Assembly (NCBI GenBank): GCA_017522445.1
Contig: JAFWZK010000058.1
Span: 2,281 to 66,280 of the forward strand
Direction of reading: 5' to 3'
DNA length: 64,000 nucleotides
Source: Alphaproteobacteria bacterium
Lineage (GTDB): Bacteria > Pseudomonadota > Alphaproteobacteria > Rs-D84
Shown here: positions 11,831 through 38,830 of the stretch, one piece after another
How positions within the stretch are numbered: the first letter of the stretch is position 1
Layout of the letters: each line of letters begins with the position of its first letter
Translations under genes and position numbers: made by a program
Notes under the pieces: generated by a model
Database searches by the model: none
What the model was told of the DNA's origin: nothing
The model's input: only the letters and a program-made list of their open reading frames with translations

Positions 11831-11834
11831 CAAT

Positions 11835-11858: not shown

Positions 11859-11872
11859 CGCTGAATGTGCGT

Positions 11873-11901
11873 ATTATATCATAAAATGTGCAAAAAATCA
11901 A
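11873..11901 (-). promoter_or_regulatory. sigma70-type promoter
   Basis: On the minus strand: TTGATT, a 17-nt spacer, then TATAAT. Confidence 0.55.
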
Positions 11902-23935: not shown

Positions 23936-23966
23936 TAAAAAACCTGGGGTGACGCCCCAGGTTTTT
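23936..23966. terminator. bidirectional terminator between the radical SAM gene and the phage-like cluster
   Basis: A-run, CCTGGGG-TGACG-CCCCAGG, then T-run, between convergent genes. Confidence 0.75.
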
Positions 23967-24456: not shown

Positions 24457-24484
24457 AAGAATATATTCCTTTGGTTATAAATAG

Positions 24485-24721
24485 TTATTTGATAACTGCA
24501 CCCTTAATCAGGGTCAGGTCTTCTTTGATATCGTCAATCTTGATTTGTATCTGGCCGATACCTGTTTCCAATATCGTTGTCCGATTTTCCAGCGATGTTA
24601 TGCGGGTGTCAAAACTTTCGTGTTCGGCAACAGATAAATCTTGGCGGGCCGCCCAATAGACCAGCCCACCAATGAAAACAATCAAAAACCAACTGTTACG
24701 AAGAAAATCTAGGATGTTCAT
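24485..24721 (-). CDS. small membrane-anchored coiled-coil protein (phage-type)
   Basis: N-terminal TM helix WFLIVFIGGLVYWAA followed by a heptad-like region. 4-nt overlap with the upstream gene. Confidence 0.5.
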   Translation of the reverse strand: MNILDFLRNSWFLIVFIGGLVYWAARQDLSVAEHESFDTRITSLENRTTILETGIGQIQIKIDDIKEDLTLIKGAVIK

Positions 24722-24921
24722 GACTTGTCCCCCCTGCCCCGTGAAATCAGTGATTCTATCTGACGAACCAGGGCACGTTGGGATTCAAGCCAGCGCAACT
24801 CGTTATCTGTGGCGTTCGGCCCCAGGGTGCGAGAAATAGTTATTTTCCGCAGGTAATCCAATACCTGCCCACCCGATGGCGTGCCAAAACAACGGGCAAA
24901 ACTTTGTTCAATTTCTGTCAC
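24718..24921 (-). CDS. small conserved portal-adjacent phage protein (Bbp19-like pattern)
   Basis: FGTPSGGQVLDYLRKITISRTLGPNATDNELRWLESQRALV resembles, from memory, the small proteins encoded next to portals of BPP-1-like podoviruses. Confidence 0.45.
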   Translation of the reverse strand: MTEIEQSFARCFGTPSGGQVLDYLRKITISRTLGPNATDNELRWLESQRALVRQIESLISRGRGDKS

Positions 24922-26159
24922 AGCGCATCACCCCCCAGTACACTTTCAATTGCTGTCATCTGGGCAATCGGGGCAATGTATTTTAATTCTGCATCGCCAT
25001 TTAGCTGGATTGGTGCTATCAAACCGCGGCGTGCCAATATCTGTAATCCACGGTCGCATAATGGACGAATAAACTCGTGCAATAAACGGCCATAGGTCGC
25101 ACCCAATATTCGCATCATGTCTGCATTGCGGGCCATGATTTCAGTGGCGGTCATTTCTTTTTCAGACAGCAATCCCAATCGGTCCGCCAACATGGCATGA
25201 CGAATGCGTTCACGTAAATCTTTCAGTATTAACTGGGATACGTCAAAGTTGGCAGCACTGTTCAATGGGGTCAAACCTGTTGAACCCACCGCCTTGGGGA
25301 TAATCGCCCCAGGGGTCAGGTTGATATTGTTCAGGTTAATCACACCATCATCGTCTGCCTGCCAGATGCCGGTAACCGCAATAGTTGCATTTTTTAAAAC
25401 CAGTTCAACAACCTTGTTCGCGGTTTTTATGTCCGGTAATGCACGCAGTACAGGTCCACGACCGTATAACTCGCCAGATGCCAATGACCAACGAAAGATT
25501 ATGTATGGATTCGTTTCAAATGTGCCACGGGACACAATGTTGTTTTCCAGTTCCCCACCAACATCCAACCAGGCCGTGAATTCAGTACCAACCAAGCTTT
25601 GAACCAAATTTAATGGGGCGTTTGGATTCTGGGTTATCATGTCACGTATATTTGATGGTGGCGTCCAGGTGGGATAACGTTCCAGAACCTCGTACAGGGG
25701 GATGGATGTGGTATGAAAAACAGCATCCGGTAAAATCGCAATATCTGTCATAGGCACCGCTGTAAATGTAAAGGCAGAGGACGAACCAAGGGGGGCCTCG
25801 GCCATAAATAGGCATGCGGTGCCATTTATCACCAAATCCATATAGCACTGGTGTATCGTGGTGTAAAAATTGGAATCGTTCAAATTAGCACGCAAAACAG
25901 CGGTCGCAATGTCTGCGTTCTGGGACATTTCACTTTCGCCCACCAGTTGCAGCCATAATGATTCTGGCGGTGTCAGCAATGTATAAATAGATGCCGCCAG
26001 ATTGTCCGCCGCATCTGATGCCGTGGCATCGTACAGTGTGGCTGTGTCTGAATCTGTGGCAGGTATCGTATAACGACGGGCATCGTCCCAGCGTGTCAAC
26101 CAGGGGGAACGCATGTCCAATGCACGTTTATACAGGTTTTGCAGGTTGTTTGGTTGCAT
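24918..26159 (-). CDS. portal (head-to-tail connector) protein, T7 gp8-type
   Basis: 413 aa. The N-terminal pattern LYKRALDMRSPWLTRWDDARRYTIP...AADNLAASIYTLLTPP matches the podovirus connector family as I recall it. It lies directly downstream of the terminase. Confidence 0.7.
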   Translation of the reverse strand: MQPNNLQNLYKRALDMRSPWLTRWDDARRYTIPATDSDTATLYDATASDAADNLAASIYTLLTPPESLWLQLVGESEMSQNADIATAVLRANLNDSNFYTTIHQCYMDLVINGTACLFMAEAPLGSSSAFTFTAVPMTDIAILPDAVFHTTSIPLYEVLERYPTWTPPSNIRDMITQNPNAPLNLVQSLVGTEFTAWLDVGGELENNIVSRGTFETNPYIIFRWSLASGELYGRGPVLRALPDIKTANKVVELVLKNATIAVTGIWQADDDGVINLNNINLTPGAIIPKAVGSTGLTPLNSAANFDVSQLILKDLRERIRHAMLADRLGLLSEKEMTATEIMARNADMMRILGATYGRLLHEFIRPLCDRGLQILARRGLIAPIQLNGDAELKYIAPIAQMTAIESVLGGDAL

Positions 26160-26189
26160 AAAAAAACTCCTTTGTGTGTGTTTTGTTTG

Positions 26190-27059
26190 TTAAACCGTAA
26201 AGTTTGTGTTTGCAGAATATGTTGTAATGGCACGACCACTGGGACGTACAATAAATGGCGTGTGCGCTATTGCACCGGCAACCGCGTCCAGACCATCATC
26301 GTGCATGCCAGATACACCGGCCGGTGACCAACCCAACATTTCTGATAAAAATGGGGTCTGACGAATGCGCATGTGGGCGTGCAGGCGACCTGTTGATAAA
26401 ACGGGCTCGATTGCGGACAGGATGCGGTCCGATTTGCTGCGACTGTTCTGAATCTTTGTTATGCGTACAGTAAAACCACGAGTGGCAGCACAATTACGCA
26501 TAATCTCGGGCAAGCCGCCACCAATGCCGTTGGTTTCCAAAACCAGATTATGCAAATTGCGACGCGACATAAAATCTAATACCTGGTCACACTGGTGCGA
26601 CAAAGGATATTGGATGCCGTCCGATACTGTTAAATACAAAATGTCATCAATAAAAATATGACGACTGTTATCATCACGATACAACAATACACAGGCACTG
26701 TTGTCACGATTGCGGCGACCAGATGATGGGTCCCAATACAGCACATGACCCGTTATCGTAAAATCCCCAATACTTGCAGTTCGCGGATTAAACTCGTCAG
26801 AATAAAATATAAGCGAACCAGGATCCAGACGTGTTCGTTCGGGCGGTATAAATTCCAATAGCATCTGAGATGAAAAATGACGATGACCAACCAAAGTACG
26901 CATCTGTTCTATGCGGGCAGCAGAAAATAATTCAGGCCAGGCAGAGGTACCGTCCGCATTAACTAGCGGAATTTTCAGGACTTTGTACCCAGATAAAAAA
27001 GGCGTTGAAAAAGCATTTTTTTCATATACCATGGGCATAGAAGAAAAGGATTGTGACAT
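26190..27059 (-). CDS. terminase large subunit, C-terminal (nuclease) fragment
   Basis: WPELF..IEQMR...FSSQMLLEF, then WDPSSG...LETNGIGGG...MHDDGLDA (RNase-H-like nuclease signature). It lacks any Walker motif. A possible own start at ATG 27059 is preceded by AGGGG. Confidence 0.7.
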   Translation of the reverse strand: MSQSFSSMPMVYEKNAFSTPFLSGYKVLKIPLVNADGTSAWPELFSAARIEQMRTLVGHRHFSSQMLLEFIPPERTRLDPGSLIFYSDEFNPRTASIGDFTITGHVLYWDPSSGRRNRDNSACVLLYRDDNSRHIFIDDILYLTVSDGIQYPLSHQCDQVLDFMSRRNLHNLVLETNGIGGGLPEIMRNCAATRGFTVRITKIQNSRSKSDRILSAIEPVLSTGRLHAHMRIRQTPFLSEMLGWSPAGVSGMHDDGLDAVAGAIAHTPFIVRPSGRAITTYSANTNFTV

Positions 27060-28623
27060 GGATTTTACCCCTAAGACATTACCAACCAATTTAGAAGCAG
27101 AACAGGCCGTGTTGGCCGCTGTGTTGATGAAAAACCGCGCACTGGAACAGGTGGGTGAATTCCTGAATGCAAAACACTTTTCACACCCCGCACACCAAGA
27201 AATCTATCGGTTGGCGGAAAAACAATTCGCAGCAGGTATACCGTTTGATATTATTACCGCAAAAAACTATCTGGACCAACAGGGGGTTCTGGAATCAGTG
27301 GGCGGTGTTGAATACCTTAGCCAGCTGGCCAGTGCAGGCACAACAGTTGTAAATGTTGAACAATATGGACGAATAGTTTATGAAAATGCACTGCGACGCG
27401 ATTTAATCGCACTGGGCCAGGAAATCACAGACAAGGCATTCATAGAAGACCTGGATAATCCCGTGGCACGACAAATCGAAGCCGCAGAACAAAAACTGTT
27501 CGATATGGCAACCACAGGTGCATCAGAACGTGAAATTACATCTATTTCAAGTGCACTGGATGCCGCCATGGCCGAAGCAGAAATCGCATACAAGGCAGAT
27601 GGACAATTGTCTGGTTTAACAACTGGACTGAATGCACTGGATACATCAATCAGCGGTCTGCATCATTCTGACCTGATTATTATCGCAGGACGACCCGCAA
27701 TGGGAAAAACAACACTGGCAATGAATATCGCATTTAATGCAGCAAATGCAATCGCACATGGACGGGCCAATAAAAACTATACAGGGGCGGTCGTATTTTT
27801 CAGTCTGGAAATGTCCGCGTCCCAGCTGGCGGCACGTGTGCTGTCTTCGCAATCGCGGGTCAAGGCATCGTCTATGCGTGAAGGTACGCTGACCGATGAA
27901 GATTTCCTGAAAATGTCCCAGTATGCCGCAGCCATTTCCAAGGTGCCACTGTTCATAGATGATACCGCAGGTATGTCTGTGCCAATGATGCGTACACGGG
28001 TGCGGCGACTGGCCAGAAAACATGGTGGTATCGCATTGATTGTTATTGACTATTTACAATTGATGACATCACCCGGCGGTAAACACAATGATAATCGTGT
28101 CCAGGAAATTTCCGAGATTACACGTGGCCTTAAAATGCTGGCCAAAGAAATGGATGTGCCAGTTATCGCACTGTCTCAGTTATCGCGTAGCGTGGAATCA
28201 CGTGATGATAAACGACCAATGTTGTCAGATTTGCGTGAATCAGGTTCAATCGAACAGGACGCCGATATCGTTATGTTTACATATCGCGAAGAATACTATT
28301 TGCAAAACCGCGATCCAAATGAACGAATTTCAAATAATACCAACGATAAAATGCATGATTCTTGGCAAAACAGAATGGATCGTGCACGCGGCAAGGCCGA
28401 TATAATCATCGGTAAAAACCGCCATGGAAGACCCGAAACCGTCAGAACCGCTTTCTTTGGCGATTTCAGCTTGTTCGATAACCTGGAAGAGTTCGAGGCA
28501 CGCGGTGAAAACGAATACGCTCAGCCCGCCCCCACAATCTCGGCAGCCAGTCTGATGAACGAAGACGATGTAATGCCAACACCAATCGATGATGATGCAA
28601 TTCCAGATGATATGCCGTTGTAA
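27058..28623 (+). CDS. dnaB: replicative DNA helicase DnaB with an acidic C-terminal extension
   Basis: LPTNLEAEQAVLAAVLM N-terminal domain, GRPAMGKT Walker A and a RecA-like core ending DIIIGKNRHGRP. Start refined to MDFTPK (ATG 27058) behind AAAGGA. Confidence 0.92.
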   Translation: MDFTPKTLPTNLEAEQAVLAAVLMKNRALEQVGEFLNAKHFSHPAHQEIYRLAEKQFAAGIPFDIITAKNYLDQQGVLESVGGVEYLSQLASAGTTVVNVEQYGRIVYENALRRDLIALGQEITDKAFIEDLDNPVARQIEAAEQKLFDMATTGASEREITSISSALDAAMAEAEIAYKADGQLSGLTTGLNALDTSISGLHHSDLIIIAGRPAMGKTTLAMNIAFNAANAIAHGRANKNYTGAVVFFSLEMSASQLAARVLSSQSRVKASSMREGTLTDEDFLKMSQYAAAISKVPLFIDDTAGMSVPMMRTRVRRLARKHGGIALIVIDYLQLMTSPGGKHNDNRVQEISEITRGLKMLAKEMDVPVIALSQLSRSVESRDDKRPMLSDLRESGSIEQDADIVMFTYREEYYLQNRDPNERISNNTNDKMHDSWQNRMDRARGKADIIIGKNRHGRPETVRTAFFGDFSLFDNLEEFEARGENEYAQPAPTISAASLMNEDDVMPTPIDDDAIPDDMPL

Positions 28624-28695
28624 TTATTTTACTTGCACCATAATTAAAAATTGACTATTATTTTGTCAAGAAACAATAGTTTTAGGAGTTTTATT

Positions 28696-29703
28696 ATGGC
28701 CCAAGAAGAAATTATATTTCCAAATAATATACGCAATATTCGCCTGGCCAAGGGAATGAAAATGACCGACCTGGCCAGACGGGCAGATTTATCGTTGTCT
28801 GCGGTTTCTAAAATCGAAAAGGGTGTTCGCAGACTGAACCAAAAACAATTACTGCGTATCTGCAATATCTTGGGATGCAAGTTGTCCGATGTGTTTATCA
28901 AAGAATCTGATGCCGTCGCCGACCAATGGCAAAGCGAAATTAAACGCAGATTAAGCGACAATGAAAACAGCGGATTAAAAGTCTTTGGCAGCGGAATGCG
29001 TAAAATTCGCCAGCAGTCCGGAAAAACTATTGCACAGGCCGCAAAAGACGCAGGTATGACACTGTCTGTGTACCATAAAATCGAGGTTGGACAACGCGAA
29101 ATCTATAAAAATGAAATCGAACCGTTGGCGGCTTCGTTCGCAATGAAAACAGAAGAACTGTTCGATAAAATCGCAAACTTGTACAAATCCGGTGAATTGA
29201 ATAAACATATCAGCAAGGTCAAGGAACGTGTTAAATCTGTTCTGGTGCCGGGAAATCCGTTGTCGGGTATCGATATGCAGGGCAGTTTATATGGCGCAAA
29301 ACTGTATGACAGTGCACGTAAAAAACTGGTGCCAGTGTTCGGAACCCCGTCCGGTAAAGCAATCGCATTTAATAAATCTGACTCTGCAATGATTATCGCA
29401 CCATCCGAACTGGAAGGACGAAAAGGTATCTATGCCATTATGCCCAATACCAAAAGAATGGGGGGGATGATACCAGAAAAATCATACATCTTTGCAGATG
29501 CACTGACACAGGCAAAACCAGGTGATTTGGCCGTGTGTCTGGATGTGGACTTTGATACGCTGGGGACCGATGAAACCGTTAATGCACAAGTTGCAATCAT
29601 TAAACAGGATTCCAGGGGTAAAGTTCTGGGACACATCCTGGGGCCTGATGAAAAAATTACACCAAAAACAATGCACAAAGTTATTATGGTTGTCATGGAA
29701 TAA
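28696..29703 (+). CDS. transcriptional regulator with two XRE-type HTH domains and a degenerate S24/LexA-like C-terminal domain
   Basis: IRNIRLAKGMKMTDLARRADLSLSAVSKIEKG and MRKIRQQSGKTIAQAAKDAGMTLSVYHKIEVG. The C-terminus has a LexA-like fold pattern, with MGGM where GxSM is expected. Start refined to MAQEEI behind AGGAG. Confidence 0.75.
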   Translation: MAQEEIIFPNNIRNIRLAKGMKMTDLARRADLSLSAVSKIEKGVRRLNQKQLLRICNILGCKLSDVFIKESDAVADQWQSEIKRRLSDNENSGLKVFGSGMRKIRQQSGKTIAQAAKDAGMTLSVYHKIEVGQREIYKNEIEPLAASFAMKTEELFDKIANLYKSGELNKHISKVKERVKSVLVPGNPLSGIDMQGSLYGAKLYDSARKKLVPVFGTPSGKAIAFNKSDSAMIIAPSELEGRKGIYAIMPNTKRMGGMIPEKSYIFADALTQAKPGDLAVCLDVDFDTLGTDETVNAQVAIIKQDSRGKVLGHILGPDEKITPKTMHKVIMVVME

Positions 29704-29733
29704 TTCAAACAATATACCCAGAGAGAGAATACA

Positions 29734-30375
29734 ATGAATACAAAATCCAGTGCAACAGCATTAAAACTGTTAAATCTGTACCGCCAAGAACACGTTATAA
29801 TCGGCGGTTGGGCCGCCGTCAATCAGGTCTTTGTCGCACAGGCAAATGATGATGTTATCCGGGAACTGAAAAATATGCCAACAGGTAAATCACTGGTTCA
29901 ACACATAGAAAACCTGAGAAGCGGCAAAACACCAATGGATTCAATCGAACGTGATTTAATGCCATATGGCGGAATGATGCTGGATTCAACTGTGCCTTCA
30001 ATCAAACTGGATGATAATCAGTGGCAGGAACTGGAATATGGTATCGATAACTTTACACCAGATCAGGCAGGATTGGAAACCTTTACCGCACTGGGGGTGG
30101 TGCAAAAGTTCGGAACAGAATGGATTACCGCAATCGCAGATGCAATAAACCAAAAACCATACCTGCGAGATAAATGGAATATCATAACCCAGACATATAA
30201 TGCATATCGACTGTGGAATACAGCAAATGAAATTATCGCAACCCCAATTTCAGAACGCGTCCGCGGTCAGGTCCAGGCCGATATGCCAGAATACGAAACA
30301 TATCTGCCAATGTTCGGTGATGCGGGTATGCAATTGCTGGAAAAATTAAGAACCATTATCAGCAGTTTAAAATAG
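29734..30375 (+). CDS. hypothetical protein (213 aa)
   Basis: Intact ORF, last gene of the plus-strand insert. Its end overlaps the stop of the terminase ATPase fragment by 9 nt. No motif recognised. Confidence 0.5.
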   Translation: MNTKSSATALKLLNLYRQEHVIIGGWAAVNQVFVAQANDDVIRELKNMPTGKSLVQHIENLRSGKTPMDSIERDLMPYGGMMLDSTVPSIKLDDNQWQELEYGIDNFTPDQAGLETFTALGVVQKFGTEWITAIADAINQKPYLRDKWNIITQTYNAYRLWNTANEIIATPISERVRGQVQADMPEYETYLPMFGDAGMQLLEKLRTIISSLK

Positions 30376-30987
30376 TTCCCCCTGCCCCGTATCTGTGCGA
30401 TATATCGTATCGTGTGTGTGCGGTGTTCCTATGTATACCATGGCACCGGTGGGCGATAATATAAAATCCAGTTCACGTAATCGTTCACGCAGGTCTGCAC
30501 GCTTTTGCAGGGTGTTTGATGTGTTTGGAACCTCGACGTCATCACATATAATTAAATCTGCACGCATGCCAGTGATGTTGCCGTGTATGCCCTGGCATAT
30601 GACAGACGGCTCGCGGATGCCAATGGGGCGATTGACCGTTATTCGACCCATCGACCATTCTTTTTTATTCGATGGAACCAAATTGCTGCACCAGGGATGA
30701 TTTTCCAATATGTGACGAATGTGCGATACCATACGGGTCGACAACCCTGATTCCGCAGATAATATTAATATACGTGTTTGGGGATATAAATACAAAACAC
30801 AGGCCGCAAAAATCCCAACAACCGTGGATTTGCCCGAATGACGAAATGCCATCAGCAATCCACGATGCGGTGAATCACACAATACACCATACAGAAATTC
30901 CAATATCTGACGATGATGACGTGGCGTTTTTAACCCCAATACTCGATTCCATTCGTCCAAAAAATCATAAAATACCGTAATCATCAC
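30367..30987 (-). CDS. terminase large subunit, N-terminal (ATPase) fragment
   Basis: Walker A-like FRHSGKST, Walker B DLIICDD and the coupling motif IGTP. The stop comes 21 codons after IGTP. Confidence 0.75.
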   Translation of the reverse strand: MMITVFYDFLDEWNRVLGLKTPRHHRQILEFLYGVLCDSPHRGLLMAFRHSGKSTVVGIFAACVLYLYPQTRILILSAESGLSTRMVSHIRHILENHPWCSNLVPSNKKEWSMGRITVNRPIGIREPSVICQGIHGNITGMRADLIICDDVEVPNTSNTLQKRADLRERLRELDFILSPTGAMVYIGTPHTHDTIYRTDTGQGELF

Positions 30988-31516
30988 GATTTTCGTTCGG
31001 TGCAGGTTCTGTTATGACACCATAGTCATTTATCAATTTCGGCAACGCATTTTCCAATACACCCAACAGATTTCTGTACAACCCCATTACCGACCCGCCC
31101 GATAATTTGTCATTTATTACAGAATGGGTATAGTCAATTAACGATTTAATGTTATCATGACGGTTCGCCCATTGCGATAAATCAATGTTGACCGAATGTA
31201 AATCCTGGAATGCAGATAACAAAAAGTTAAAGTCAGAGTTTAAATCTTCGGGATCTATTTGGGCCGTTGGCTGATAGTCAATCGTACGTGATAATGATAT
31301 TTGTCTGAAAATGTCCAGACGTGTGCCTGTTTCCGGGGCAATATCAAAAACAACATTGCCACCAGAAAAATCAGAGTTTGGTATCACAGTAAAATTAGCC
31401 CCGTGATTATCTAAAACCTCGTTTATCGCAACGCAAATGTCCGCGACCTGAAAAAACGGAAAGGAAAATGCAAACTCGGTCGTCGTGCCGTCCGCAATAT
31501 AAGATATTTTGTACAT
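30965..31516 (-). CDS. tail-fibre adaptor protein with a T7 gp17 N-terminal-like domain
   Basis: YIADGTTTEFAFSFPFFQVADICVAIN...IDYQPTAQIDPEDLNSDFNFLLSAFQDL follows the Y..DG....F.IPF...V pattern of podovirus fibre N-termini. Confidence 0.55.
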   Translation of the reverse strand: MYKISYIADGTTTEFAFSFPFFQVADICVAINEVLDNHGANFTVIPNSDFSGGNVVFDIAPETGTRLDIFRQISLSRTIDYQPTAQIDPEDLNSDFNFLLSAFQDLHSVNIDLSQWANRHDNIKSLIDYTHSVINDKLSGGSVMGLYRNLLGVLENALPKLINDYGVITEPAPNENRDDYGIL

Positions 31517-31539
31517 ATTTATACCCCCATGACCTGTTC

Positions 31540-31887
31540 CTAGCCAACCAAATCATCAAATCTGGATAAAATTGATCGCAGCAAGTTTGGCTTTTTAGCA
31601 GTACTTTGTTTTAACTTTTTCAAATTATTACGACGTTTTTCTTCGTATGGGGCCGCGGTTTCAGAACGCAAACGTTCCAATACGCGACCGGCGGTCATGC
31701 CTGATGCAGATACACCAGACGAACCATACTTGGCGCGCTGGGCGGCCAAGACTTTTTTCACCAGATTCGTCTTTTCTGTGTTATCTGTCGCCATCTGGGC
31801 AAGAATTTCTTTGCGTTGGCTTTTTGCCTGCTTCTTGGCATCTTTATAGTCCAAGATTTCTGTCACATCTGATACAAGTTGTCCCAT
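31540..31887 (-). CDS. small basic virion-associated-type protein, unknown function
   Basis: 115 aa, Lys/Arg-rich and predicted helical. It sits between tail genes. Confidence 0.4.
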   Translation of the reverse strand: MGQLVSDVTEILDYKDAKKQAKSQRKEILAQMATDNTEKTNLVKKVLAAQRAKYGSSGVSASGMTAGRVLERLRSETAAPYEEKRRNNLKKLKQSTAKKPNLLRSILSRFDDLVG

Positions 31888-31950
31888 GTGTTTTCCTTTG
31901 CTTTGTTTGATTTGTTTTATGTGTTATTAAAATTGTTGGCACAATGATAA

Positions 31951-33666
31951 CTAGATCATGTACCAGCCATGTAAACTGACCGATAAAACAGTCAGCGGAT
32001 ATGATTCTGTACCGTGAATTGTCCATGGCGGGCGTATACAGTCATGTGCTGTACCCAATAAATTCAGCGAAACATCACCACTGAAACCAGGTGAATCCGC
32101 GGCATATATCACATTAGGTAAACTGATGCGTTGATTGTTAATGTGTAATGATTTGGAATCCAATAATCGGGCAACCAGTTTTCTTAACCGTATCCGACGT
32201 GGATTATGCCCCGATGCCCGCAACGGTAAACCAGAGGCAATATATGCAAAACTGAACGTGCCACAATCGTCCTGACAATCTGAATCAAAGTATTCCAGAC
32301 TGATTACCCCTGAACGCTTGACCGCGACGTATGTGCGACCATCTGTAACCGCAACCGATAAAAAATCGCCCGCTGTGCGGTATGTGCACCATGCAGAAAT
32401 ACCAACCGATGAATTCTGGTTTAAAACGGCCATAATACCATCTGAACGAACAATGTACAGTCTGCGTTCAGTCGCGTTATAGCACATGTCAACAGGAACC
32501 TGCATCAGGTGCTTGGCCATAACAGATAAATCATTGGCGTTATAGTTTTCACCTAACTCGTCCAGCCCCAGTTCGCGCAAATCACAACCACTGGCGGAAA
32601 TAAAGATTGTCGAACCTTCGATTTTCTGGGGTGGCAAATATCGCGATGTGTACGAGCCAACTGATGTGTGCTGCTTGATATCAACAGACGATGGGGTCAG
32701 CGGTTTGCTGGATATCGCCCATTCGCCCGCATTCGTCAATATCTGCAAATTTTCACTGCTGACCAGGGTGCAAATCTGTTGACGCTGTTGCGATAATAAT
32801 GATATGAAAATCGCTTCGTCATCCAGGCCTGTGCCACCGTCAAAATTGTTGTGACGCCCAACCTGGGACATCCAAATGCCCGCAGGCCAATCGCGCGAAC
32901 CACCAAATACCAATCTGTCCTGGTGAAATGTGATACTGCGGGGCCATCCACGGCGGGAACCAAAGGCCGCCTCGGACCAAGATGATACCGGGGATGATGG
33001 TAATGAATACGAACCGTTTGTGTGGGCAACAATCTGGGTGGAAGATATATATTCCGCAACCGTCCATTGGCGATCCAATAAATACAGCCGACCATTTACA
33101 TTATCAGGTGTCCAAAAATCACGATTGGTCGTAAATGTCGCATAATTATTGCCAGAACTGTTGGCTGTGACGGTTATCGTAATGTCCGATGCATCATCAA
33201 AGCGAACAAACGGTATGTTCAGCGTCATGTCCGAATCATTGCGGGAAAATGTAAAGTCCGAAATGTAAAATCTGTCCGGATGTTTGACCAGCGTCTGGGG
33301 ACAATGGTCAGGATGAACAAATATCATCGTACCAAAACGCTGGGCATACTGCAGATTGGATAAATCTGCAACTGACCATGGTGTTATCAAATCCTGGACC
33401 AAATCGCCCCCCAGATATATGTCCATGTGAAAATCCGTCAGGGCAAGCAAATATTCCGCACCGTCCGATACCGAAAATGATATCAGGCGTGCTTGCCCAA
33501 CCAAATTGTCAATGTGACGCAACCCATAACGACGCGATAAACCACCACCAGATATAACATTCATATTCTCTAAACGGGACAGACCATTTATATTATCACT
33601 GGTGTAAAATTCTGGGGCAACTTCGCCGTTTGCAAACGAGTTTTGTGTCTTTATAAAATCTGTCAT
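31951..33666 (-). CDS. large tail protein (tail tubular protein B / nozzle-like)
   Basis: 571 aa directly after the tubular-A-like gene. The N-terminus FANGEVAPEFYTSDNINGLSRLENMNVISGGGLSRRYG resembles podovirus tail-tube/stabilisation proteins as I recall them. Confidence 0.5.
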   Translation of the reverse strand: MTDFIKTQNSFANGEVAPEFYTSDNINGLSRLENMNVISGGGLSRRYGLRHIDNLVGQARLISFSVSDGAEYLLALTDFHMDIYLGGDLVQDLITPWSVADLSNLQYAQRFGTMIFVHPDHCPQTLVKHPDRFYISDFTFSRNDSDMTLNIPFVRFDDASDITITVTANSSGNNYATFTTNRDFWTPDNVNGRLYLLDRQWTVAEYISSTQIVAHTNGSYSLPSSPVSSWSEAAFGSRRGWPRSITFHQDRLVFGGSRDWPAGIWMSQVGRHNNFDGGTGLDDEAIFISLLSQQRQQICTLVSSENLQILTNAGEWAISSKPLTPSSVDIKQHTSVGSYTSRYLPPQKIEGSTIFISASGCDLRELGLDELGENYNANDLSVMAKHLMQVPVDMCYNATERRLYIVRSDGIMAVLNQNSSVGISAWCTYRTAGDFLSVAVTDGRTYVAVKRSGVISLEYFDSDCQDDCGTFSFAYIASGLPLRASGHNPRRIRLRKLVARLLDSKSLHINNQRISLPNVIYAADSPGFSGDVSLNLLGTAHDCIRPPWTIHGTESYPLTVLSVSLHGWYMI

Positions 33667-33691
33667 TTGTTGTTTTCCCTTTGGTAAATTG

Positions 33692-34210
33692 TCAAAAACG
33701 GCTGGTGATTAATGAAAAGTCAGTCAAACACGAAGGGGCAGATGTTGTGCTGTCCAGATATTTTGCAGTCTGTAATTCCGTTTCATACAACGCCGCCAAC
33801 ATGCGAAATACCGTTTGATCACCCAACAAGGGAATACAAAATTCCATCGCCAAACGCGTCACCGCCAATGATATAAAATAACTGGGGAACTGTTCCGGTG
33901 ATACACGCCGAAGAACAACAACAGACACACTGTCTGAATCAGATATAATCCGATTGCCTGTAATATCACCGTCCGAACGTAATACACGCAATACATCCGA
34001 TGGAATCAAAAAATCGCCATCTGTATTGCGAACCAAATCCAATTGGGCCGTCGCAAAACGCCATGGATGCAGCGATATCAAAGAATCTGTGATAACATCA
34101 AACAATGTACGTGAAAGTTTGGCGGCCGCACTGTCGTCCGTCAATGACTGGATTGGCTGTTCCCCCAGTTTTAACAGTGCCATAGAACATAAATCTATTT
34201 TGGTTAGCAT
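33692..34210 (-). CDS. tail tubular protein A / head-tail adaptor-like
   Basis: MLTKIDLCSMALLKLGEQPIQSLTDDSAAAKLSRTLFDVITDSLISLHPWRFA matches the widespread podovirus pattern (..AL..LG...I.SL.D.S..A......Y......LL....W.FA). Confidence 0.55.
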   Translation of the reverse strand: MLTKIDLCSMALLKLGEQPIQSLTDDSAAAKLSRTLFDVITDSLISLHPWRFATAQLDLVRNTDGDFLIPSDVLRVLRSDGDITGNRIISDSDSVSVVVLRRVSPEQFPSYFISLAVTRLAMEFCIPLLGDQTVFRMLAALYETELQTAKYLDSTTSAPSCLTDFSLITSRF

Positions 34211-34287
34211 TTTTTGACCCTTTGGTTATGTTATGAATAAAATTGGGCCGAAATTAATCGGCCCGAACATAAGAAAATAAAAAACAT

Positions 34288-34521
34288 TTATGCCAATGCA
34301 ACCGTAGTCACATTTAATTCAGTGATATTAATTCTTTTAATCGCCGTGTTGTCAGATGCGTTAATAATTACAATATCACCAATGTTCATCAGCGTTTTTA
34401 CACCATTAAAATACCCGTTCGCAGTAATAGTAGACATCGTTTCAGATGCACTGCAATAGTGCCACAATGTAAAACCATTTGCATATGCAATCACGGATAA
34501 GTTTTTGTTCTGAAATGCCAT
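34288..34521 (-). CDS. small phage protein downstream of the capsid gene (possible decoration/accessory head protein)
   Basis: MAFQNKNLSVIAYANGFTLWHY... Start refined to ATG 34521 behind AAAGGA. Function unknown. Confidence 0.45.
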   Translation of the reverse strand: MAFQNKNLSVIAYANGFTLWHYCSASETMSTITANGYFNGVKTLMNIGDIVIINASDNTAIKRINITELNVTTVALA

Positions 34522-34556
34522 TTGTGTTTTCCTTTTGGTTAATGATGATATTAATT

Positions 34557-35384
34557 TTATGCGCTCAAAGAATCTGAACATTTAACGCGAACAATACCTG
34601 TGTCGTCTATTAACACCGCACCCTGAGACATGCTGTTGCTGATAAAGTGGGCAGCACGCTCTCCGTGCCATGAAATGTCAGTCTTGACATCCTGACCACA
34701 GGCATGACCAATGCTGGACGCATGATAGATAAAGCAGTCACGATTTGTACCCGATACGGGCAAACCATTGTGCAGAACCCATGTAATGCCCAACCATTTG
34801 CGGGCAATACCACCATTTAACAACGGGGCAGTATTACCAACATAATCCGCCGAGACAAACTCGTCCAGCGACAACAGCTCGTTCCACTGGTGTACGCCAA
34901 CAACTGCAAAGCGGCGGCCATCATCTGGAACGTCGTTTGTATTTAATACCTCGACTGCAGATAAAATCAATTCTTTGGTCAGCCCTGTTGAATAATCCCC
35001 AACTGTTGCCGTTGCATCATTCATTGCCGAGATAATCAATTCATCTGTTTTACGCCCCAATGCGTATGCACCCGCAGATGCAACAACACGACGTTCGTCT
35101 ATGTTCGTTTTTAATTCATCCAATGCGTCAACCCAATCGCCCGCATAGTAATCCATCAGCATGCATTCAACAGGTTCATGATTTAAATTCATAACAGGTA
35201 CAATGCCATGACGTGATTTTGTGCTGGCTGTGCCACGCCCAACCTTTTGAAACGTGGTAGATGCACCAATTACACCAGATTTACTGCGAACAGTTGAACG
35301 CAGTTTCGTGCCCATTTGCTGGTACGCCAAATGAACATCCGCTTCGAATTGTTTCACAAATACATTATCTATGGAAACAGACAT
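34557..35384 (-). CDS. major capsid protein
   Basis: 275 aa downstream of the scaffold-like gene. VFVKQFEADVHLAYQQMGTKLRSTV...GRKTDELIISAM resembles podovirus capsid proteins as I recall them. Confidence 0.6.
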   Translation of the reverse strand: MSVSIDNVFVKQFEADVHLAYQQMGTKLRSTVRSKSGVIGASTTFQKVGRGTASTKSRHGIVPVMNLNHEPVECMLMDYYAGDWVDALDELKTNIDERRVVASAGAYALGRKTDELIISAMNDATATVGDYSTGLTKELILSAVEVLNTNDVPDDGRRFAVVGVHQWNELLSLDEFVSADYVGNTAPLLNGGIARKWLGITWVLHNGLPVSGTNRDCFIYHASSIGHACGQDVKTDISWHGERAAHFISNSMSQGAVLIDDTGIVRVKCSDSLSA

Positions 35385-35592
35385 ACAATAATCCTTTTGG
35401 TTAAGTAAAAATTAAATTGCAGTATTTATAAAATAAACACTGCAGGTGTATTTTGTGTTCTGGTTATGCATAACTGCGCCATAAAACAAAAAAGGTTATT
35501 TCGGGTTCACACCAATGTGTGAATTGTCCGATAAAAAATGAAAGAAAAAATATCAGTCAGACTGTGCACGTTAATCTGACTGATACTGATTC

Positions 35593-35615
35593 AAAAAAAC
35601 CCCGCAATCGCGGGG
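35593..35615 (-). terminator. intrinsic terminator after the Lys/Ala-repeat gene
   Basis: On the minus strand: CCCCGC-GATT-GCGGGG followed by TTTTTTT. Confidence 0.7.
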
Positions 35616-35623
35616 AATATTTA

Positions 35624-36100
35624 TTATTTTTTCTTGCACACTTTCTTGGCAACAGGTTTTTTTGCAACCGGTTTTTTAATTGCGGCTTTTTTTACAACTG
35701 GTTTTTTCACCGCAACTTTTTTTGCAGGTGCAGCTTTCTTTGCGACTGGTTTTTTCACCGCAACTTTTTTCGCAGGTGCAGCTTTCTTTGCAACTGGTTT
35801 TTTCACCGCAACTTTTTTCGCAGGTGCAACTTTCTTTGCAACTGGTTTTTTTACCGCAACTTTTTTCGCAGGTGCAACTTTCTTTGCAACTGGTTTTTTC
35901 ACCGCAACTTTTTTCGCAGGTGCAGCTTTCTTTGCGACTGGTTTTTTCACCGCAACTTTTTTCGCAGGTGCAGCTTTCTTTGCAGCCGGTTTTTTCACTG
36001 CAACTTTTTTCGCAGGTGCAGCTTTCTTTGCGACTGGTTTTTTTTCTTCTGCTTTTTTGACCGCTTCTTTTTTGCGTATTCTTAAAAATGGAAATGCCAT
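35624..36100 (-). CDS. Lys/Ala/Pro-repeat, histone H1-like basic protein
   Basis: 158 aa made almost entirely of KKPVAKKAAPAKKVAV units. Own RBS (AAGGAGAG) and terminator. The three plus-strand ORFs over the same DNA are repeat artefacts. Confidence 0.7.
   Translation of the reverse strand: MAFPFLRIRKKEAVKKAEEKKPVAKKAAPAKKVAVKKPAAKKAAPAKKVAVKKPVAKKAAPAKKVAVKKPVAKKVAPAKKVAVKKPVAKKVAPAKKVAVKKPVAKKAAPAKKVAVKKPVAKKAAPAKKVAVKKPVVKKAAIKKPVAKKPVAKKVCKKK
35697..36032. repeat. tandem repeat, 7 x 48 bp, in frame
   Basis: Unit ACTGGTTTTTTCACCGCAACTTTTTTCGCAGGTGCAGCTTTCTTTGCA starts at 35697, 35745, 35793, 35841, 35889, 35937 and 35985, with only point differences. Degenerate partial copies lie on both sides. 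Confidence 0.95.
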
Positions 36101-36211
36101 TCTTCTCTCCTTCTAGGTGTTTTGTTTGAATAGAACAAATCCGTTTTGTTCTTGGTTTCTATTTTATCATGAAACATGAAACCGAGTAAAGCAGAAAAGT
36201 AATTTTTTTCA

Positions 36212-36868
36212 TCATGAATATAATTTTTTAAATCCATTTTCTATTTTACGTATGTATTCAACATCGTTATCACGCCAGTATTTTGGGTCACGCATCATAC
36301 GACGTAAATCAGAATCTGTCAGATTGTCGGATGCAGAGTTTTCCGTATGAACATTTGGTTCCATTGATTGCATCATTTTGTAAATGCTTTGTATTCCCTG
36401 GGGTGTAGAACATAACTCGGTAAATGCATCGTGTGGTAAAAATCGTTCACCAAATGTGTTTATTTCACGTAATGCATGTTGCATTTTTTCATTTCCACCA
36501 AAAAAATTCTGCAGCTGAGTTATTGCATTGCTTTCATCCTGGACAGAAAATATTTCTGATATCAATGGTGATAAAAATTCGTTCGCAATGTTATAAATTT
36601 CAGAAACCTGATTACAAGTTAACCCTAGGTCAAAAAATTTCTGACGCAACATTTCATCATCGTATAGTTCATTTGTTGGATACTCGGACGCAGATGATGG
36701 GACGCCAATTGCACGATTAAACTTTTGACGTGTTTCATCGTCTGCATCGGCCGATGGAATTGATACCATACCACCAATCTTTTTTTCTAATTCTTTGTAC
36801 GAACGTACCAACGCGTCTGTATTCAACGTACCATCATTGTTTAAAAATTTTTCTGGGATATTATCCAT
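36212..36868 (-). CDS. scaffolding protein-like
   Basis: MDNIPEKFLNNDGTLNTDALVRSYKELEKKIGG resembles the N-termini of phage scaffolding/capsid-assembly proteins. It is helical and acidic and lies upstream of the capsid gene. Start refined to ATG 36868. Confidence 0.5.
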   Translation of the reverse strand: MDNIPEKFLNNDGTLNTDALVRSYKELEKKIGGMVSIPSADADDETRQKFNRAIGVPSSASEYPTNELYDDEMLRQKFFDLGLTCNQVSEIYNIANEFLSPLISEIFSVQDESNAITQLQNFFGGNEKMQHALREINTFGERFLPHDAFTELCSTPQGIQSIYKMMQSMEPNVHTENSASDNLTDSDLRRMMRDPKYWRDNDVEYIRKIENGFKKLYS

Positions 36869-37058
36869 TATCTTTTCCTTTGGTTTCATTTGAACGGCGT
36901 AAAAAATAAATTCCAGCCAATGTGAATATTGCCTGCAACATTGTAAACAGATCTGTGTCACCAACCAGGTATGCCCCCAGTGCCGATACAATACCAGTTG
37001 CAGAAATTATATATGTTCGATACCCAGACAGATATCCACCACGTATAAACTTGCGCAT
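36861..37058 (-). CDS. holin-like small membrane protein (two TM segments)
   Basis: MRKFIRGGYLSGYRTYIISATGIVSALGAYLVG..LQAIFTLAGIYFLRR with a charged C-terminus, directly after the cell-wall hydrolase gene. Confidence 0.45.
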   Translation of the reverse strand: MRKFIRGGYLSGYRTYIISATGIVSALGAYLVGDTDLFTMLQAIFTLAGIYFLRRSNETKGKDNG

Positions 37059-37074
37059 ACTGTGCACCCCGCGA

Positions 37075-37485
37075 CTAAAGATAAAACAGTACATTGTCTA
37101 TGTCCGCAATGTATCCACGTGCAATCGCCCAGTCGGGTAATATATCGGCGTGATGAAATGCGGTCGCACCATTACAACAATCAGGTAACATACCAGATAA
37201 CATTCGCTTTGCCGTGCGAACACACATCTGAAAATGACGCGAATCCGCAGGAACAGTTAATCGTTCGTGATGCGGAGAACTTTCGTCCAGTACAGAAAAA
37301 ATTTTCATGTCACGAATTATTTCATGCATTGAACGGTTCGTCTTGATGGACAGGTTCCTTATCATCGTGGTCATTGCTTCGACCAACCGCAGCGACGTGC
37401 CACCTGTTTGTGCATAAACAACACGTGCAATCTGATACGCCAATGATGCAGATGCATCCGGATTCGGTATAATAGTTAACTGCAT
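37075..37485 (-). CDS. cell wall hydrolase (SleB/Hydrolase_2-like)
   Basis: LAYQIARVVYAQTGG...VEAMTTMIRN...NGATAFHHADILPDWA...FY follows the SleB-family pattern. Confidence 0.6.
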   Translation of the reverse strand: MQLTIIPNPDASASLAYQIARVVYAQTGGTSLRLVEAMTTMIRNLSIKTNRSMHEIIRDMKIFSVLDESSPHHERLTVPADSRHFQMCVRTAKRMLSGMLPDCCNGATAFHHADILPDWAIARGYIADIDNVLFYL

Positions 37486-37512
37486 TGCAATACCTTTTTA
37501 TGTCTGAGTATG

Positions 37513-37537
37513 AAAAAACCACGTGATGGACACGTGG
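37513..37537 (-). terminator. leader terminator 2 upstream of the phage-like cluster
   Basis: On the minus strand: CCACGTG-TCCAT-CACGTGG then TTTTTTC. Confidence 0.6.
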
Positions 37538-37541
37538 AAAT

Positions 37542-37568
37542 AAAAAAACGCCACAACCTTTGTTGTGG
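37542..37568 (-). terminator. leader terminator 1 upstream of the phage-like cluster
   Basis: On the minus strand: CCACAAC-AAAG-GTTGTGG then CGTTTTTTT. Confidence 0.6.
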
Positions 37569-37595
37569 ACACAATCTTTGCTGTTTATGTCGTGC

Positions 37596-37624
37596 AGTAT
37601 ACCATATTTTCAGCACAAAGTCAA
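37596..37624 (-). promoter_or_regulatory. sigma70-type promoter of the phage-like cluster
   Basis: On the minus strand: TTGACT, a 17-nt spacer, then TATACT. Confidence 0.55.
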
Positions 37625-37635
37625 GAACTTTTTTT

Positions 37636-37662
37636 AAAAAACGCGATTTTCCGCGTTTTTTT
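37636..37662. terminator. bidirectional terminator after birA
   Basis: AAAAAACGCG-ATTTTC-CGCGTTTTTTT. Confidence 0.6.
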
Positions 37663-38768: not shown

Positions 38769-38830
38769 TAAAAAACCACAACATCTGACGATATCGTGGT
38801 TTGGGGATGTCGAAAACCTGAAACTAAAAT

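What the first reader, a model, noticed from the sequence alone, without database searches (positions are those of the whole stretch)
37486..37625. Near-consensus promoter followed by two tandem intrinsic terminators in the leader of the phage-like cluster (antitermination-type control)
Seen (minus strand), in order:
1. TTGACT, a 17-nt spacer, then TATACT
2. about 20 nt later, CCACAAC-AAAG-GTTGTGG plus T7
3. three nt later, CCACGTG-TCCAT-CACGTGG plus T6
4. about 25 nt later, the RBS and ATG of the first gene (37485)

Further terminator-like hairpins precede the capsid gene (35385-35620).

Established: a strong constitutive promoter with a terminator immediately downstream is the signature of phage late operons, which are opened by Q-type or RNA-based (put-like) processive antitermination.

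Inference: the whole cluster is silent unless an antiterminator acts. None is recognisable in this window. The same architecture recurs at 11805-11901.
Basis: partly seen in the sequence, partly recalled or inferred. Interest (0 to 1): 0.6.

Follow-up and report, generated by a model that had tools for sequence, protein, structure and literature searches.

The report
Promoter plus twin terminators before phage-like genes
A strong promoter followed at once by two transcription stop signals sits in front of a domesticated T7-like particle gene cluster in an uncultured gut alphaproteobacterium; the design is conserved in relatives and most likely keeps these lysis and capsid genes off until a factor lets RNA polymerase read through.

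Summary
On the minus strand lie a near-consensus sigma-70 promoter (TTGACT, 17 nt, TGnTATACT), a conserved 23-nt 5' segment, two hairpin-plus-T-run terminators, and the start of a cell-wall hydrolase gene. No room is left for another promoter.

About 15 related lineages keep the same layout at the same place (birA, leader, hydrolase, holin-like gene, T7-like scaffold and capsid). Ten of the 13 stem pairs show compensatory changes.

The second site (11808-11901) is real. It heads an unlinked MuF/GH108 peptidoglycan hydrolase gene and is conserved in about 10 lineages. More conserved terminator-like hairpins precede the capsid gene.

Best reading: a late-operon-type leader opened by processive antitermination. 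Known examples are lambdoid Q, Pseudomonas AlpA and the GTA factors BrrG and GafZ. This remains an inference. I found no antiterminator gene, no shared factor-binding motif and no usable transcript data.

The principle is known. The setting is new: a T7-like GTA-like cluster with a twin-terminator leader at two loci.

The parts
37636..37661 (-). Intrinsic terminator of the upstream birA gene (A6-CGCGGAAAATCGCG-T6), which insulates the leader from birA transcription
   Evidence: Relatives have a different hairpin at the same place.
37596..37624 (-). Sigma-70 type promoter: -35 TTGACT (37624-37619), 17-nt spacer, extended -10 TG (37604-37603), -10 TATACT (37601-37596)
   Evidence: CTTGACTT, the 17-nt spacing, TGn and TAnnnT are invariant in 15 lineages.
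37569..37591 (-). Conserved 5' leader segment GACATAAACAGCAAAGATTGTGT. It is the start of the transcript if the TSS lies near 37590. It may form a weak hairpin (ACAUAA/UUGUGU) and contains a conserved nA(G/A)ATT hexamer.
   Evidence: The segment is sequence-conserved. The proposed helix is 84% paired but has no compensatory changes.
37542..37568 (-). Terminator 1: CCACAAC-AAAG-GTTGTGG, then CG and T7
   Evidence: Five of its 7 pairs show compensatory changes.
37513..37537 (-). Terminator 2: CCACGTG-TCCAT-CACGTGG, then T6
   Evidence: Five of its 6 pairs show compensatory changes.
37483..37499 (-). Ribosome-binding site (AAAAAGG) and ATG of the first gene, 27 nt after terminator 2. No conserved promoter fits in this gap.
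37075..37485 (-). First gene: 136-aa SleB-type cell-wall hydrolase (Pfam Hydrolase_2, below the curated cutoff)
36861..37058 (-). Second gene: about 65-aa protein with two hydrophobic helices (holin-like by inspection), present after the hydrolase in nearly all relatives examined (not called in L007)
23965..37485 (-). T7-like head and tail cluster: scaffold, lysine-repeat protein, capsid, tail tube A and B, fibre, terminase in two pieces, portal, fibre. No replication, integrase or RNA polymerase gene was recognised. A dnaB-XRE-213 aa operon on the other strand interrupts it.
   Evidence: The synteny next to birA is conserved.
35385..35623 (-). Conserved 5' region of the capsid gene. It holds terminator A (35615-35593), an invariant long palindromic hairpin plus T-run (35585-35545), a covarying hairpin C (35523-35506), a conserved block (35486-35450) and hairpin E plus a T-rich tail (35444-35407).
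   Evidence: The leader model also picks up the A+B pair at 21.7 bits.
11808..11901 (-). Second leader of the same architecture: TTGATT, 17 nt, TGATATAAT; hairpin 11859-11841 plus T7; hairpin 11831-11815 plus T7; ATG at 11791
   Evidence: Conserved in about 10 lineages.
10934..11791 (-). Gene served by the second leader: 285-aa protein with a Mu-F-like N-terminal part, a GH108 lysozyme domain and a peptidoglycan-binding domain

Best explanation
The region is the regulatory leader of a chromosomally fixed, T7-derived particle gene cluster (GTA-like) in an uncultured gut alphaproteobacterium.

Proposed mechanism:
1. Host sigma-70 RNA polymerase starts efficiently at a near-consensus promoter with an extended -10.
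2. It makes a short RNA of about 50 to 80 nt and is released at one of two consecutive intrinsic terminators.
3. The lysis pair (hydrolase and holin-like protein) and the structural genes behind it therefore stay essentially off.
4. Expression needs polymerase made resistant to termination near the promoter. The agent would be a processive antiterminator encoded elsewhere, or one of the unassigned small DNA-binding proteins nearby.
5. Such polymerase would also pass the conserved terminator-like hairpins in front of the capsid gene.
6. The unlinked MuF/GH108 hydrolase locus carries the same module and would be switched on together with the cluster.

Shown here: the promoter and terminator anatomy, its conservation and covariation, its recurrence at a second locus, and the gene content.

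Inferred: that the hairpins terminate, that read-through is conditional, and that a factor exists.
For: - Anatomy and coordinates.
- Rarity: tandem same-strand terminator pairs number 3 in the window against 0.1 in shuffles. Only the two phage-derived loci have them in a 5' leader.
- Contrast with housekeeping genes: other extended -10 promoters in the window run straight into an RBS, with no hairpin and T-run.
- Conservation: 15 lineages of the main leader and about 10 of the second keep the promoter geometry, both hairpins and both T-runs, while the stem sequences change.
- Covariation: 10 of 13 pairs, 0 of 500 shuffles, slid controls 24-49% paired against 90.5%.
- Hairpin energies: about -8 to -15 kcal/mol in most lineages (terminator 1 about -5 to -9), each followed by 6-8 U.
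- No other promoter: only 17-42 poorly conserved nt separate terminator 2 from the ATG.
- No other mechanism fits: the stems are not conserved in sequence, no alternative pairing is conserved, and no Rfam family matches. A mechanism independent of terminator sequence is therefore needed.
- The operon starts with a hydrolase and a two-TM protein.
- Internal terminator-like hairpins are conserved.
Against: - No antiterminator gene was recognised in the 64 kb. Pfam and PHROGs gave nothing. A confident model of the conserved 213-aa protein has no PDB fold match.
- The -35/-10 spacer, where the Q-lambda, Q21, AlpA and GafZ sites lie, is not conserved. This holds between lineages, between the two leaders of this genome, and even between close relatives.
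- The candidate -10-like pause hexamer is present at an aligned position in only about two thirds of lineages.
- No boxA or ops occurs in the leaders.
- There is no direct transcript evidence. Metatranscriptome contigs cover cluster genes at depths like gap and birA, and none covers the leader.
Confidence: 0.5

Rival explanations
1. Fixed attenuator. There is no dedicated factor. The twin terminators simply pass a small constant or stochastic fraction of a very active promoter's transcripts. This sets a low level of expression, or expression in rare cells, for dangerous lysis and particle genes.
For: No antiterminator and no shared factor-binding motif was found. Stem stabilities are moderate, about -8 to -9 kcal/mol for terminator 1 in most lineages, so some leak is expected. 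RNA-derived contigs of cluster genes exist at depths like those of housekeeping genes.
Against: A weak promoter would give the same result at lower cost. Instead, a full-consensus promoter (-35, 17 nt, TGn, -10) is invariant in about 25 lineages of two leader families. More terminator-like hairpins inside the operon would multiply the loss before the capsid gene.
Confidence: 0.2
2. Small-RNA gene. The promoter and terminators make a stable RNA of about 80 nt that is the functional product. Its conserved 5' segment acts as a seed and its two hairpins with U-tails as an Hfq-type body. Read-through into the hydrolase gene is incidental.
For: The architecture resembles typical trans-acting sRNAs. 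The 23-nt 5' segment is the best conserved non-promoter sequence of the main leader.
Against: The first gene has no promoter of its own, so it depends on read-through. The second leader family has a short 5' segment that is not conserved. A duplex scan of the whole window found no target beyond the background extreme: best -21.6 kcal/mol, inside frr, about 4 SD among 12,788 windows. No Rfam family matches.
Confidence: 0.1
3. Insulator for another transcription system. The terminators only block host sigma-70 polymerase. The cluster is really transcribed from other signals by a dedicated polymerase or alternative sigma factor encoded elsewhere, for example a retained T7-type RNA polymerase. The conserved 5' segment and the conserved block before the capsid gene would then be candidate promoters.
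For: The cluster is T7-like, and T7-like phages use their own polymerase with about 23-nt promoters. The conserved 5' segment is 23 nt long, and another conserved sequence block precedes the capsid gene.
Against: No polymerase or sigma gene is in the window. The two conserved blocks share no obvious common motif. The hairpin plus U-run signals lie downstream of the putative start and would also hinder a T7-type enzyme (general knowledge, not tested here). The second leader has no such conserved block.
Confidence: 0.1

Closest known systems
Lambdoid late-gene control: PR' promoter, 6S RNA/tR' terminator and Q protein (Q-lambda, Q21, Q82)
   Same: A strong constitutive sigma-70 promoter is followed closely by an intrinsic terminator. 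A short terminated RNA is made. Lysis genes come first and head and tail genes follow. Read-through must be independent of terminator sequence.
   Different: There are two terminators within about 80 nt of the start, not one at about +120 to +190. No conserved site lies between -35 and -10. No Q-family gene is next to the promoter. The cluster is T7-like and fixed in the chromosome, not a lambdoid prophage.
Pseudomonas aeruginosa AlpA system (alpBCDE lysis genes and the PA0807/ampDh3 locus), PMC7969949 and PMC9371919
   Same: Chromosomal self-lysis genes and a second, unlinked peptidoglycan-hydrolase locus each have a promoter followed by one or two intrinsic terminators upstream of the first ORF. 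A small DNA-binding antiterminator opens both.
   Different: AlpA targets share a motif (GGGACG-N5-GGTA) between -35 and -10; the two leaders here share none that is conserved. No Phage_AlpA-family protein was found. The conserved 81-aa neighbour is a Cro/C1-type HTH of unknown role.
Bartonella GTA: PbgtA-K promoter, long leader with terminator, Q21-like BrrG (bioRxiv 10.1101/2024.11.20.624540)
   Same: An alphaproteobacterial domesticated phage cluster has a conserved near-consensus sigma-70 promoter (TTGACA-N17-TATCAT), a terminator in the leader, and an antiterminator encoded at another locus.
   Different: The BaGTA leader is about 860 nt with one weak terminator (-6 kcal/mol) and a required -10-like element 5 bp after the -10. 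Here the leader is about 105 nt with two canonical terminators, and the -10-like element is only a candidate. The particle type also differs (T7-like here).
Caulobacter GTA: GafY/IHF activation and GafZ antitermination (PMC11150451)
   Same: A GTA cluster whose transcription must pass terminators. Dispersed accessory loci are co-regulated.
   Different: In Caulobacter the promoter is activator-dependent, the terminator lies after the first gene and consists of three 150-bp GC-rich repeats, and the GafZ site is a palindrome between -35 and -10. None of these features is seen here.
HK022 put RNA and lambda N/nut
   Same: Cis elements in the first tens of nucleotides of the transcript could modify polymerase. 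The 5' segment here could form a small hairpin with a conserved loop.
   Different: The put stem-loops are not followed by U-runs and act as the antiterminator themselves. boxA is absent here. The second leader has almost no RNA upstream of terminator 1.

Membership tests
Q-type (lambdoid) late-operon leader | Strong sigma-70 promoter directly upstream of an intrinsic terminator that precedes the late (lysis, then structural) genes | tested here: met
   conserved in 15 lineages
Q-type (lambdoid) late-operon leader | Q-binding element embedded in the promoter, between -35 and -10 | tested here: not met
   Apart from TT after the -35 and the TGn, the spacer is not conserved among lineages. A site that co-evolves with its factor cannot be excluded.
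Q-type (lambdoid) late-operon leader | A -10-like (NANNNT) sigma-dependent pause element in the initially transcribed region | tested here: inconclusive
   nA(G/A)ATT lies at about +13 to +18 (37578-37573). It is at the aligned position in about 10 of 15 lineages and shifted by 1-2 nt in the others. NANNNT is common by chance.
Q-type (lambdoid) late-operon leader | Q-family antiterminator gene next to the promoter | tested here: not met
   The upstream genes are birA, a 139-aa weak wHTH protein and an 81-aa Cro/C1-type HTH protein. There is no Q-family Pfam or PHROG hit. Only this window was searched.
AlpA-type antitermination regulon | Two or more target promoters that share a factor-binding motif between -35 and -10, each followed by leader terminators | tested here: inconclusive
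   Two loci with leader terminators are present. Their spacers agree at 10 of 17 positions, but that similarity is lost in close relatives (L082).
AlpA-type antitermination regulon | AlpA-family (Phage_AlpA) small winged-helix protein | tested here: not met
   No such hit in the window
N/nut and rrn-type antitermination | boxA sequence in the leader RNA | tested here: not met
   No boxA-like match in either leader
RfaH/LoaP (NusG paralogue) control | ops-like recruitment element in the leader and a NusG paralogue | tested here: not met
   No ops match in the leaders. No KOW/NusG hit in the window. LoaP-type sites are not defined well enough to test.
HK022 put-type RNA antiterminator | Two promoter-proximal stem-loops that act without U-tracts and have conserved structure-specific nucleotides | tested here: not met
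   Both stem-loops are followed by 6-8 U in all lineages, and their sequences vary freely.
Riboswitch or classical attenuator | A conserved alternative (antiterminator) pairing or a ligand/peptide-sensing domain upstream of the terminator | tested here: not met
   Only 23 nt precede terminator 1. RNAalifold finds only the two hairpins. There is no Rfam match and no leader ORF.
Gene transfer agent (domesticated phage cluster) | A structural and lysis gene set without replication or integration genes, inherited vertically at a fixed chromosomal place | tested here: met
   Gene content. The same neighbours (81 aa, 139 aa, birA) occur in lineages with 52-88% hydrolase identity.
Gene transfer agent (domesticated phage cluster) | Particles that package random host DNA and transfer it | not testable with these tools
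   Needs particle purification and sequencing. The organism is known only from metagenomes.

The most novel reading that the evidence does not exclude
Uncultured gut Alphaproteobacteria carry a so far undescribed T7-derived gene transfer agent (or related killing or transfer particle). Its main cluster and at least one unlinked peptidoglycan-hydrolase locus form a regulon marked by a 'consensus promoter plus twin terminator' leader. A processive antiterminator of a new kind switches the regulon; it is not Q, AlpA or GafZ and has no promoter-spacer site. It may be recruited through the conserved 23-nt start of the transcript or be one of the conserved unassigned proteins of the locus.
Probability: 0.3. 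Interest if true: 0.75.

Novelty: new variant of a known kind. Interest (0 to 1): 0.55.

Why it matters
If the reading is right, it extends promoter-terminator-antiterminator control, recently shown for the Bartonella and Caulobacter GTAs and for Pseudomonas self-lysis genes, to a third lineage. This one has an independent, podovirus-type origin and lives in gut bacteria that nobody has cultured.

It would give:
- a simple sequence signature for finding all parts of such dispersed particle systems in metagenomes: a consensus promoter, two terminators, then an RBS;
- a compact, portable, very tight off-switch of about 130 bp that can be tested in standard reporter systems;
- a concrete search for the missing factor.

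If the reading is wrong and the leader is a fixed attenuator, the element is still a clear, conserved case of expression set by tandem terminators.

Tried and rejected
- Rfam, at gathering and at permissive thresholds, matched nothing in the leaders or the capsid 5' region.
- Trans-target scan. The 25-nt 5' segment was scanned against the whole window by RNA duplex energy. Nothing exceeded the expected extreme, so the sRNA-seed idea gained no support.
- A 5' hairpin (ACAUAA/UUGUGU) is 84% paired but shows no compensatory change, so I do not claim it.
- Transcript evidence. Only four low-coverage gut metatranscriptomes (contigs only) hold this organism. None covers the leader, and depths are uninformative.
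- Antiterminator search. Pfam and PHROGs were run on most of the larger ORFs of the window. PDB sequence searches gave nothing useful.
- Structure models. The AlphaFold model of the conserved 213-aa protein (pLDDT 80) has no fold match in PDB. The single-sequence model of the 139-aa protein had pLDDT 44 and was discarded.
- boxA and ops patterns are absent from the leaders.
- No repeats flank the 3.3-kb segment that splits the terminase.
- Viral-contig and first metagenome scans with the two hydrolases found nothing. A capsid query in IMG/VR returned mostly 9-14 kb fragments of the same chromosomal cluster, not free phage genomes.
- A sigma-54 promoter in the capsid 5' block was considered and rejected, because the GG-to-GC spacing varies between lineages.

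Full report
**What is there**

On the minus strand the biotin-protein ligase gene birA ends at 37661 and has its own terminator (37661-37636). The following elements come next:
- TTGACT (37624-37619), a 17-nt spacer, then TGG-TATACT (37604-37596);
- a 23-nt segment, GACATAAACAGCAAAGATTGTGT (37591-37569);
- hairpin CCACAAC-AAAG-GTTGTGG (37568-37551), then CG and T7;
- ATTT, then hairpin CCACGTG-TCCAT-CACGTGG (37537-37519), then T6;
- 27 nt that include an AAGG ribosome-binding site;
- the ATG at 37485.

ViennaRNA folds the leader into exactly these two hairpins, plus a weak 5' hairpin.

**Is it chance?**

A 10-of-12 promoter match alone means little: 25 were found against 19.8 expected. Terminator-like sites are enriched, with 51 against 20.3 +/- 4.9 in dinucleotide shuffles. 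Same-strand pairs no more than 25 nt apart are rare: 3 in the window against a mean of 0.1 and a maximum of 1 in 60 shuffles.

One of the three pairs (1777-1843) lies at the 3' end of ackA. The other two (37568-37519 and 11859-11815) lie between a promoter and a start codon.

Other intergenic promoters of the TTG...TGnTAnnnT type in the window stand before ackA, the RNase E/G gene, gap and frr. These run straight into a ribosome-binding site with no hairpin and T-run. The promoter type is therefore the organism's ordinary strong promoter. The twin terminators are special to these two loci.

**Context**

The window comes from an uncultured gut alphaproteobacterium. The closest genome record is a water-buffalo colon MAG, and the sequence occurs in gut, faecal and manure metagenomes.

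The gene order downstream of the leader is as follows:
- a 136-aa SleB-type cell-wall hydrolase (Pfam Hydrolase_2, just below the curated cutoff);
- a roughly 65-aa protein with two hydrophobic helices (holin-like, by inspection);
- T7-type scaffold;
- a lysine-rich KKPVAKK repeat protein;
- capsid;
- a 97-aa protein;
- tail tube A and B;
- a 115-aa protein;
- a T7 fibre N-terminal domain;
- terminase in two pieces;
- portal;
- two small ORFs;
- an Mtd_N/H-lectin fibre.

I recognised no replication, integration or RNA polymerase gene.

The block [81-aa Cro/C1-type HTH]-[139-aa protein]-[birA]-leader-[hydrolase]-[small TM protein]-[scaffold]-[repeat protein]-[capsid] recurs in all examined relatives (the small TM gene was not called in one locus, L007), with hydrolase identity from 52 to 88%. 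The genes further upstream differ among them: priA, miaA, corA, a tRNA methyltransferase or ribosomal protein genes. This is the pattern of a domesticated, vertically inherited phage remnant, that is, a GTA-like element. IMG/VR holds many 9-14 kb fragments of it labelled as viral.

**Conservation of the leader**

Fifteen distinct leaders were collected: the window, L001, L002, L004, L005, L007, L009, L012, L014, L016, L023, L038, L047, L050 and L051. All of them keep:
- CTTGACTT;
- exactly 17 nt of spacer, with TG at -15/-14;
- TAnnnT;
- a related 5' segment, consensus CAT(A/C)AA.AG...A(G/A)ATT.TGTCC;
- hairpin 1 plus 6-8 T;
- hairpin 2 plus 6-8 T;
- an RBS and the ATG.

The sequence between the birA stop and the -35, and between terminator 2 and the RBS, is not conserved.

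The stems change while staying paired. Examples for hairpin 1 are CCACAAC/GTTGTGG, CCACAC/GTGTGG, CCGCGGG/CCGGCGG, TTCACAC/GTGTGAA and CCGCAAA/TTTGCGG. Examples for hairpin 2 are CCACGTG, CCACGCG, CCCTGTGTG, CCCATGCA, GGGTCGCA and AGGTCGCA.

On a model-based alignment of 13 sequences, 10 of 13 pairs have compensatory double changes, 90.5% of cells are paired, 0 of 500 column shuffles reach this, and slid controls give 24-49%. That alignment was fitted to the structure, which favours it. However, an independent MAFFT/RNAalifold run gave the same two helices and also 10 of 13.

Hairpin energies are about -8 to -15 kcal/mol in most lineages.

**The second site**

At 11901-11808 lies TTGATT, 17 nt, TGATATAAT, about 13 nt, GGACGAC-ATTG-GGTCGTC(T) plus T7, ATTG, CCCGC-ACA-CGCGGGTG plus T7, an RBS and the ATG at 11791.

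The gene encodes a 285-aa protein with a Mu-F-like part, a GH108 lysozyme domain and a peptidoglycan-binding domain. It is followed by a 177-aa paralogous secreted protein. Here the pair sits in a 1.8-kb island beside tRNA-His, bounded by an exact 52-bp repeat.

In relatives the gene pair has other neighbours but always carries its leader. About ten lineages keep the promoter, hairpin 1 plus T-run and, in all but the most distant, hairpin 2 plus T-run, again with varying stems. The covariance model built from the first leader finds several of these at low score.

Two unlinked, phage-derived peptidoglycan-hydrolase loci thus share one regulatory architecture without sharing its sequence.

**Inside the operon**

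The 239-nt region before the capsid gene is conserved in ten lineages. It contains:
- a canonical terminator directly after the repeat-protein gene;
- a 17-bp hairpin whose core (ATCAGTCAGA...TCTGACTGAT) is invariant and is followed by T6-8;
- a covarying hairpin in TGGAYAAT-...-ACCC;
- a conserved TGGCGCA...TGCATAACCA block;
- a variable hairpin with a T-rich tail.

A polymerase coming from the leader promoter would therefore have to pass at least four or five terminator-like signals to reach the capsid gene.

**Mechanism**

Four points argue for regulated, processive read-through:
1. The first gene has no promoter of its own, so it depends on read-through.
2. A full-consensus promoter is kept invariant, although a weak one would be enough for low expression.
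3. The terminator stems are free to vary and no alternative pairing is conserved. This excludes riboswitch, attenuator or BglG-type control, which act on a specific terminator.
4. There are several terminators in series, at two loci.

This is the logic of lambdoid Q (PMC6606751). Recent work shows the same logic for chromosomal elements:
- AlpA of P. aeruginosa opens the alpBCDE lysis operon, which has one leader terminator. It also opens the PA0807/ampDh3 peptidoglycan-amidase locus, which has two (PMC7969949).
- Q21-like BrrG opens the Bartonella GTA operon from a near-consensus constitutive promoter (10.1101/2024.11.20.624540).
- GafZ lets polymerase pass terminators in the Caulobacter GTA cluster (PMC11150451).

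The AlpA case is the closest in layout.

**What speaks against it, or is missing**

- I found no antiterminator. No Q, AlpA, NusG/KOW or sigma-like domain occurs in the window.
- The conserved 213-aa protein sits in a dnaB-XRE-213 aa operon that interrupts the cluster. It gives a confident all-helical model with no PDB fold match.
- The 139-aa protein upstream of birA is only weakly like winged-helix DNA-binding domains, and its single-sequence model was unusable.
- The promoter spacer, where the Q-lambda, Q21, AlpA and GafZ sites lie, is not conserved.
- The only candidate sigma-dependent pause element, nA(G/A)ATT at 37578-37573, is imperfectly conserved.
- boxA and ops are absent.
- Transcript data are too thin. 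Contigs from four gut metatranscriptomes touch the scaffold, tube, fibre and repeat genes at depths of 2-3. This is similar to gap and birA, and nothing covers the leader. It neither shows silence nor excludes DNA carry-over.

**Rivals**

I give 0.5 to conditional processive antitermination. The rivals are:
- a fixed attenuator without a factor (0.2);
- a small-RNA gene (0.1), for which no target was found and in which the second leader has no conserved seed;
- an insulator combined with another transcription system, such as a phage-type polymerase encoded elsewhere (0.1).

**Novelty**

The control principle is known. The following were not found described, either in the Rfam release searched here or in the papers found and read here:
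- the compact twin-terminator leader of about 105 nt;
- its presence at two unlinked hydrolase loci;
- the absence of the usual promoter-embedded factor site;
- the setting in a T7-like GTA-like cluster of gut Alphaproteobacteria.

The only podovirus-like GTA-like element I found reported is FpGTA of Faecalibacterium (PMC12946183). I rate the finding as a new variant of a known kind, of moderate interest.

Noticed in passing
window 35385-35623 (minus strand); L002-L023 homologous regions: The roughly 240-nt region before the capsid gene is a conserved, structured non-coding element. It holds a terminator, a 17-bp hairpin with an invariant palindromic core (ATCAGTCAGA-N9-13-TCTGACTGAT) plus a T-run, a covarying hairpin in TGGAYAAT..ACCC, and a conserved TGGCGCA..TGCATAACCA block. 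The palindrome is unique in the window. Because its sequence is invariant rather than covarying, it looks like a protein-binding site (operator or RNA site). No Rfam family matches.
   Followed up: partly
window 26190-30987: The T7-type large terminase is encoded in two ORFs on the minus strand: the ATPase part at 30367-30987 and the rest plus the nuclease at 26190-27089. They are separated by 3.3 kb on the plus strand that carries dnaB, a 350-aa double-HTH XRE protein and a highly conserved 213-aa protein of unknown fold. The same dnaB-XRE-212 aa block, with the terminase C-terminal part beyond it, occurs at this position in a relative with 59% hydrolase identity (L023). No flanking repeats were found.
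   Followed up: partly
window 35624-36100: Between the scaffold and capsid genes lies a 158-aa protein made almost entirely of KKPVAKKAAPAKKVAV-type repeats (Pfam HC2, histone H1-like). Its length varies from about 100 to 164 aa among relatives. It may be a DNA-condensing protein of the particle.
   Followed up: no
window 10257-12113: An exact 52-bp direct repeat (10257-10308 and 12062-12113) includes the 3' end of tRNA-His and its terminator. It brackets a 1.8-kb low-GC island that carries the MuF/GH108 gene pair. A third, degraded copy lies at 11900-11949. This looks like the scar of successive integrations at tRNA-His with no integrase left.
   Followed up: partly
window 38313-39076: An 81-aa Cro/C1-type HTH gene with its own terminator (38802-38773), and a 139-aa weak winged-helix ORF that overlaps the birA start, accompany the cluster in all relatives examined (in L012 one 212-aa ORF is called there instead), whatever lies further upstream. 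They may be regulators of the cluster. Alternatively, the 139-aa ORF may be a detached DNA-binding domain of BirA.
   Followed up: partly
window 1777-1843: A third tandem terminator pair lies after the acetate kinase gene. Its second hairpin is bidirectional and shared with the converging gene. This is an ordinary 3'-end arrangement and served as a contrast to the two leader pairs.
   Followed up: yes
L025-L065 (IMG/VR): Many IMG/VR 'viral genomes' of about 10-12.5 kb are fragments of this chromosomal cluster. Many of them are cut exactly at the start of the capsid gene, so the regulatory leader and lysis genes are left out of the predicted viral region.
   Followed up: no
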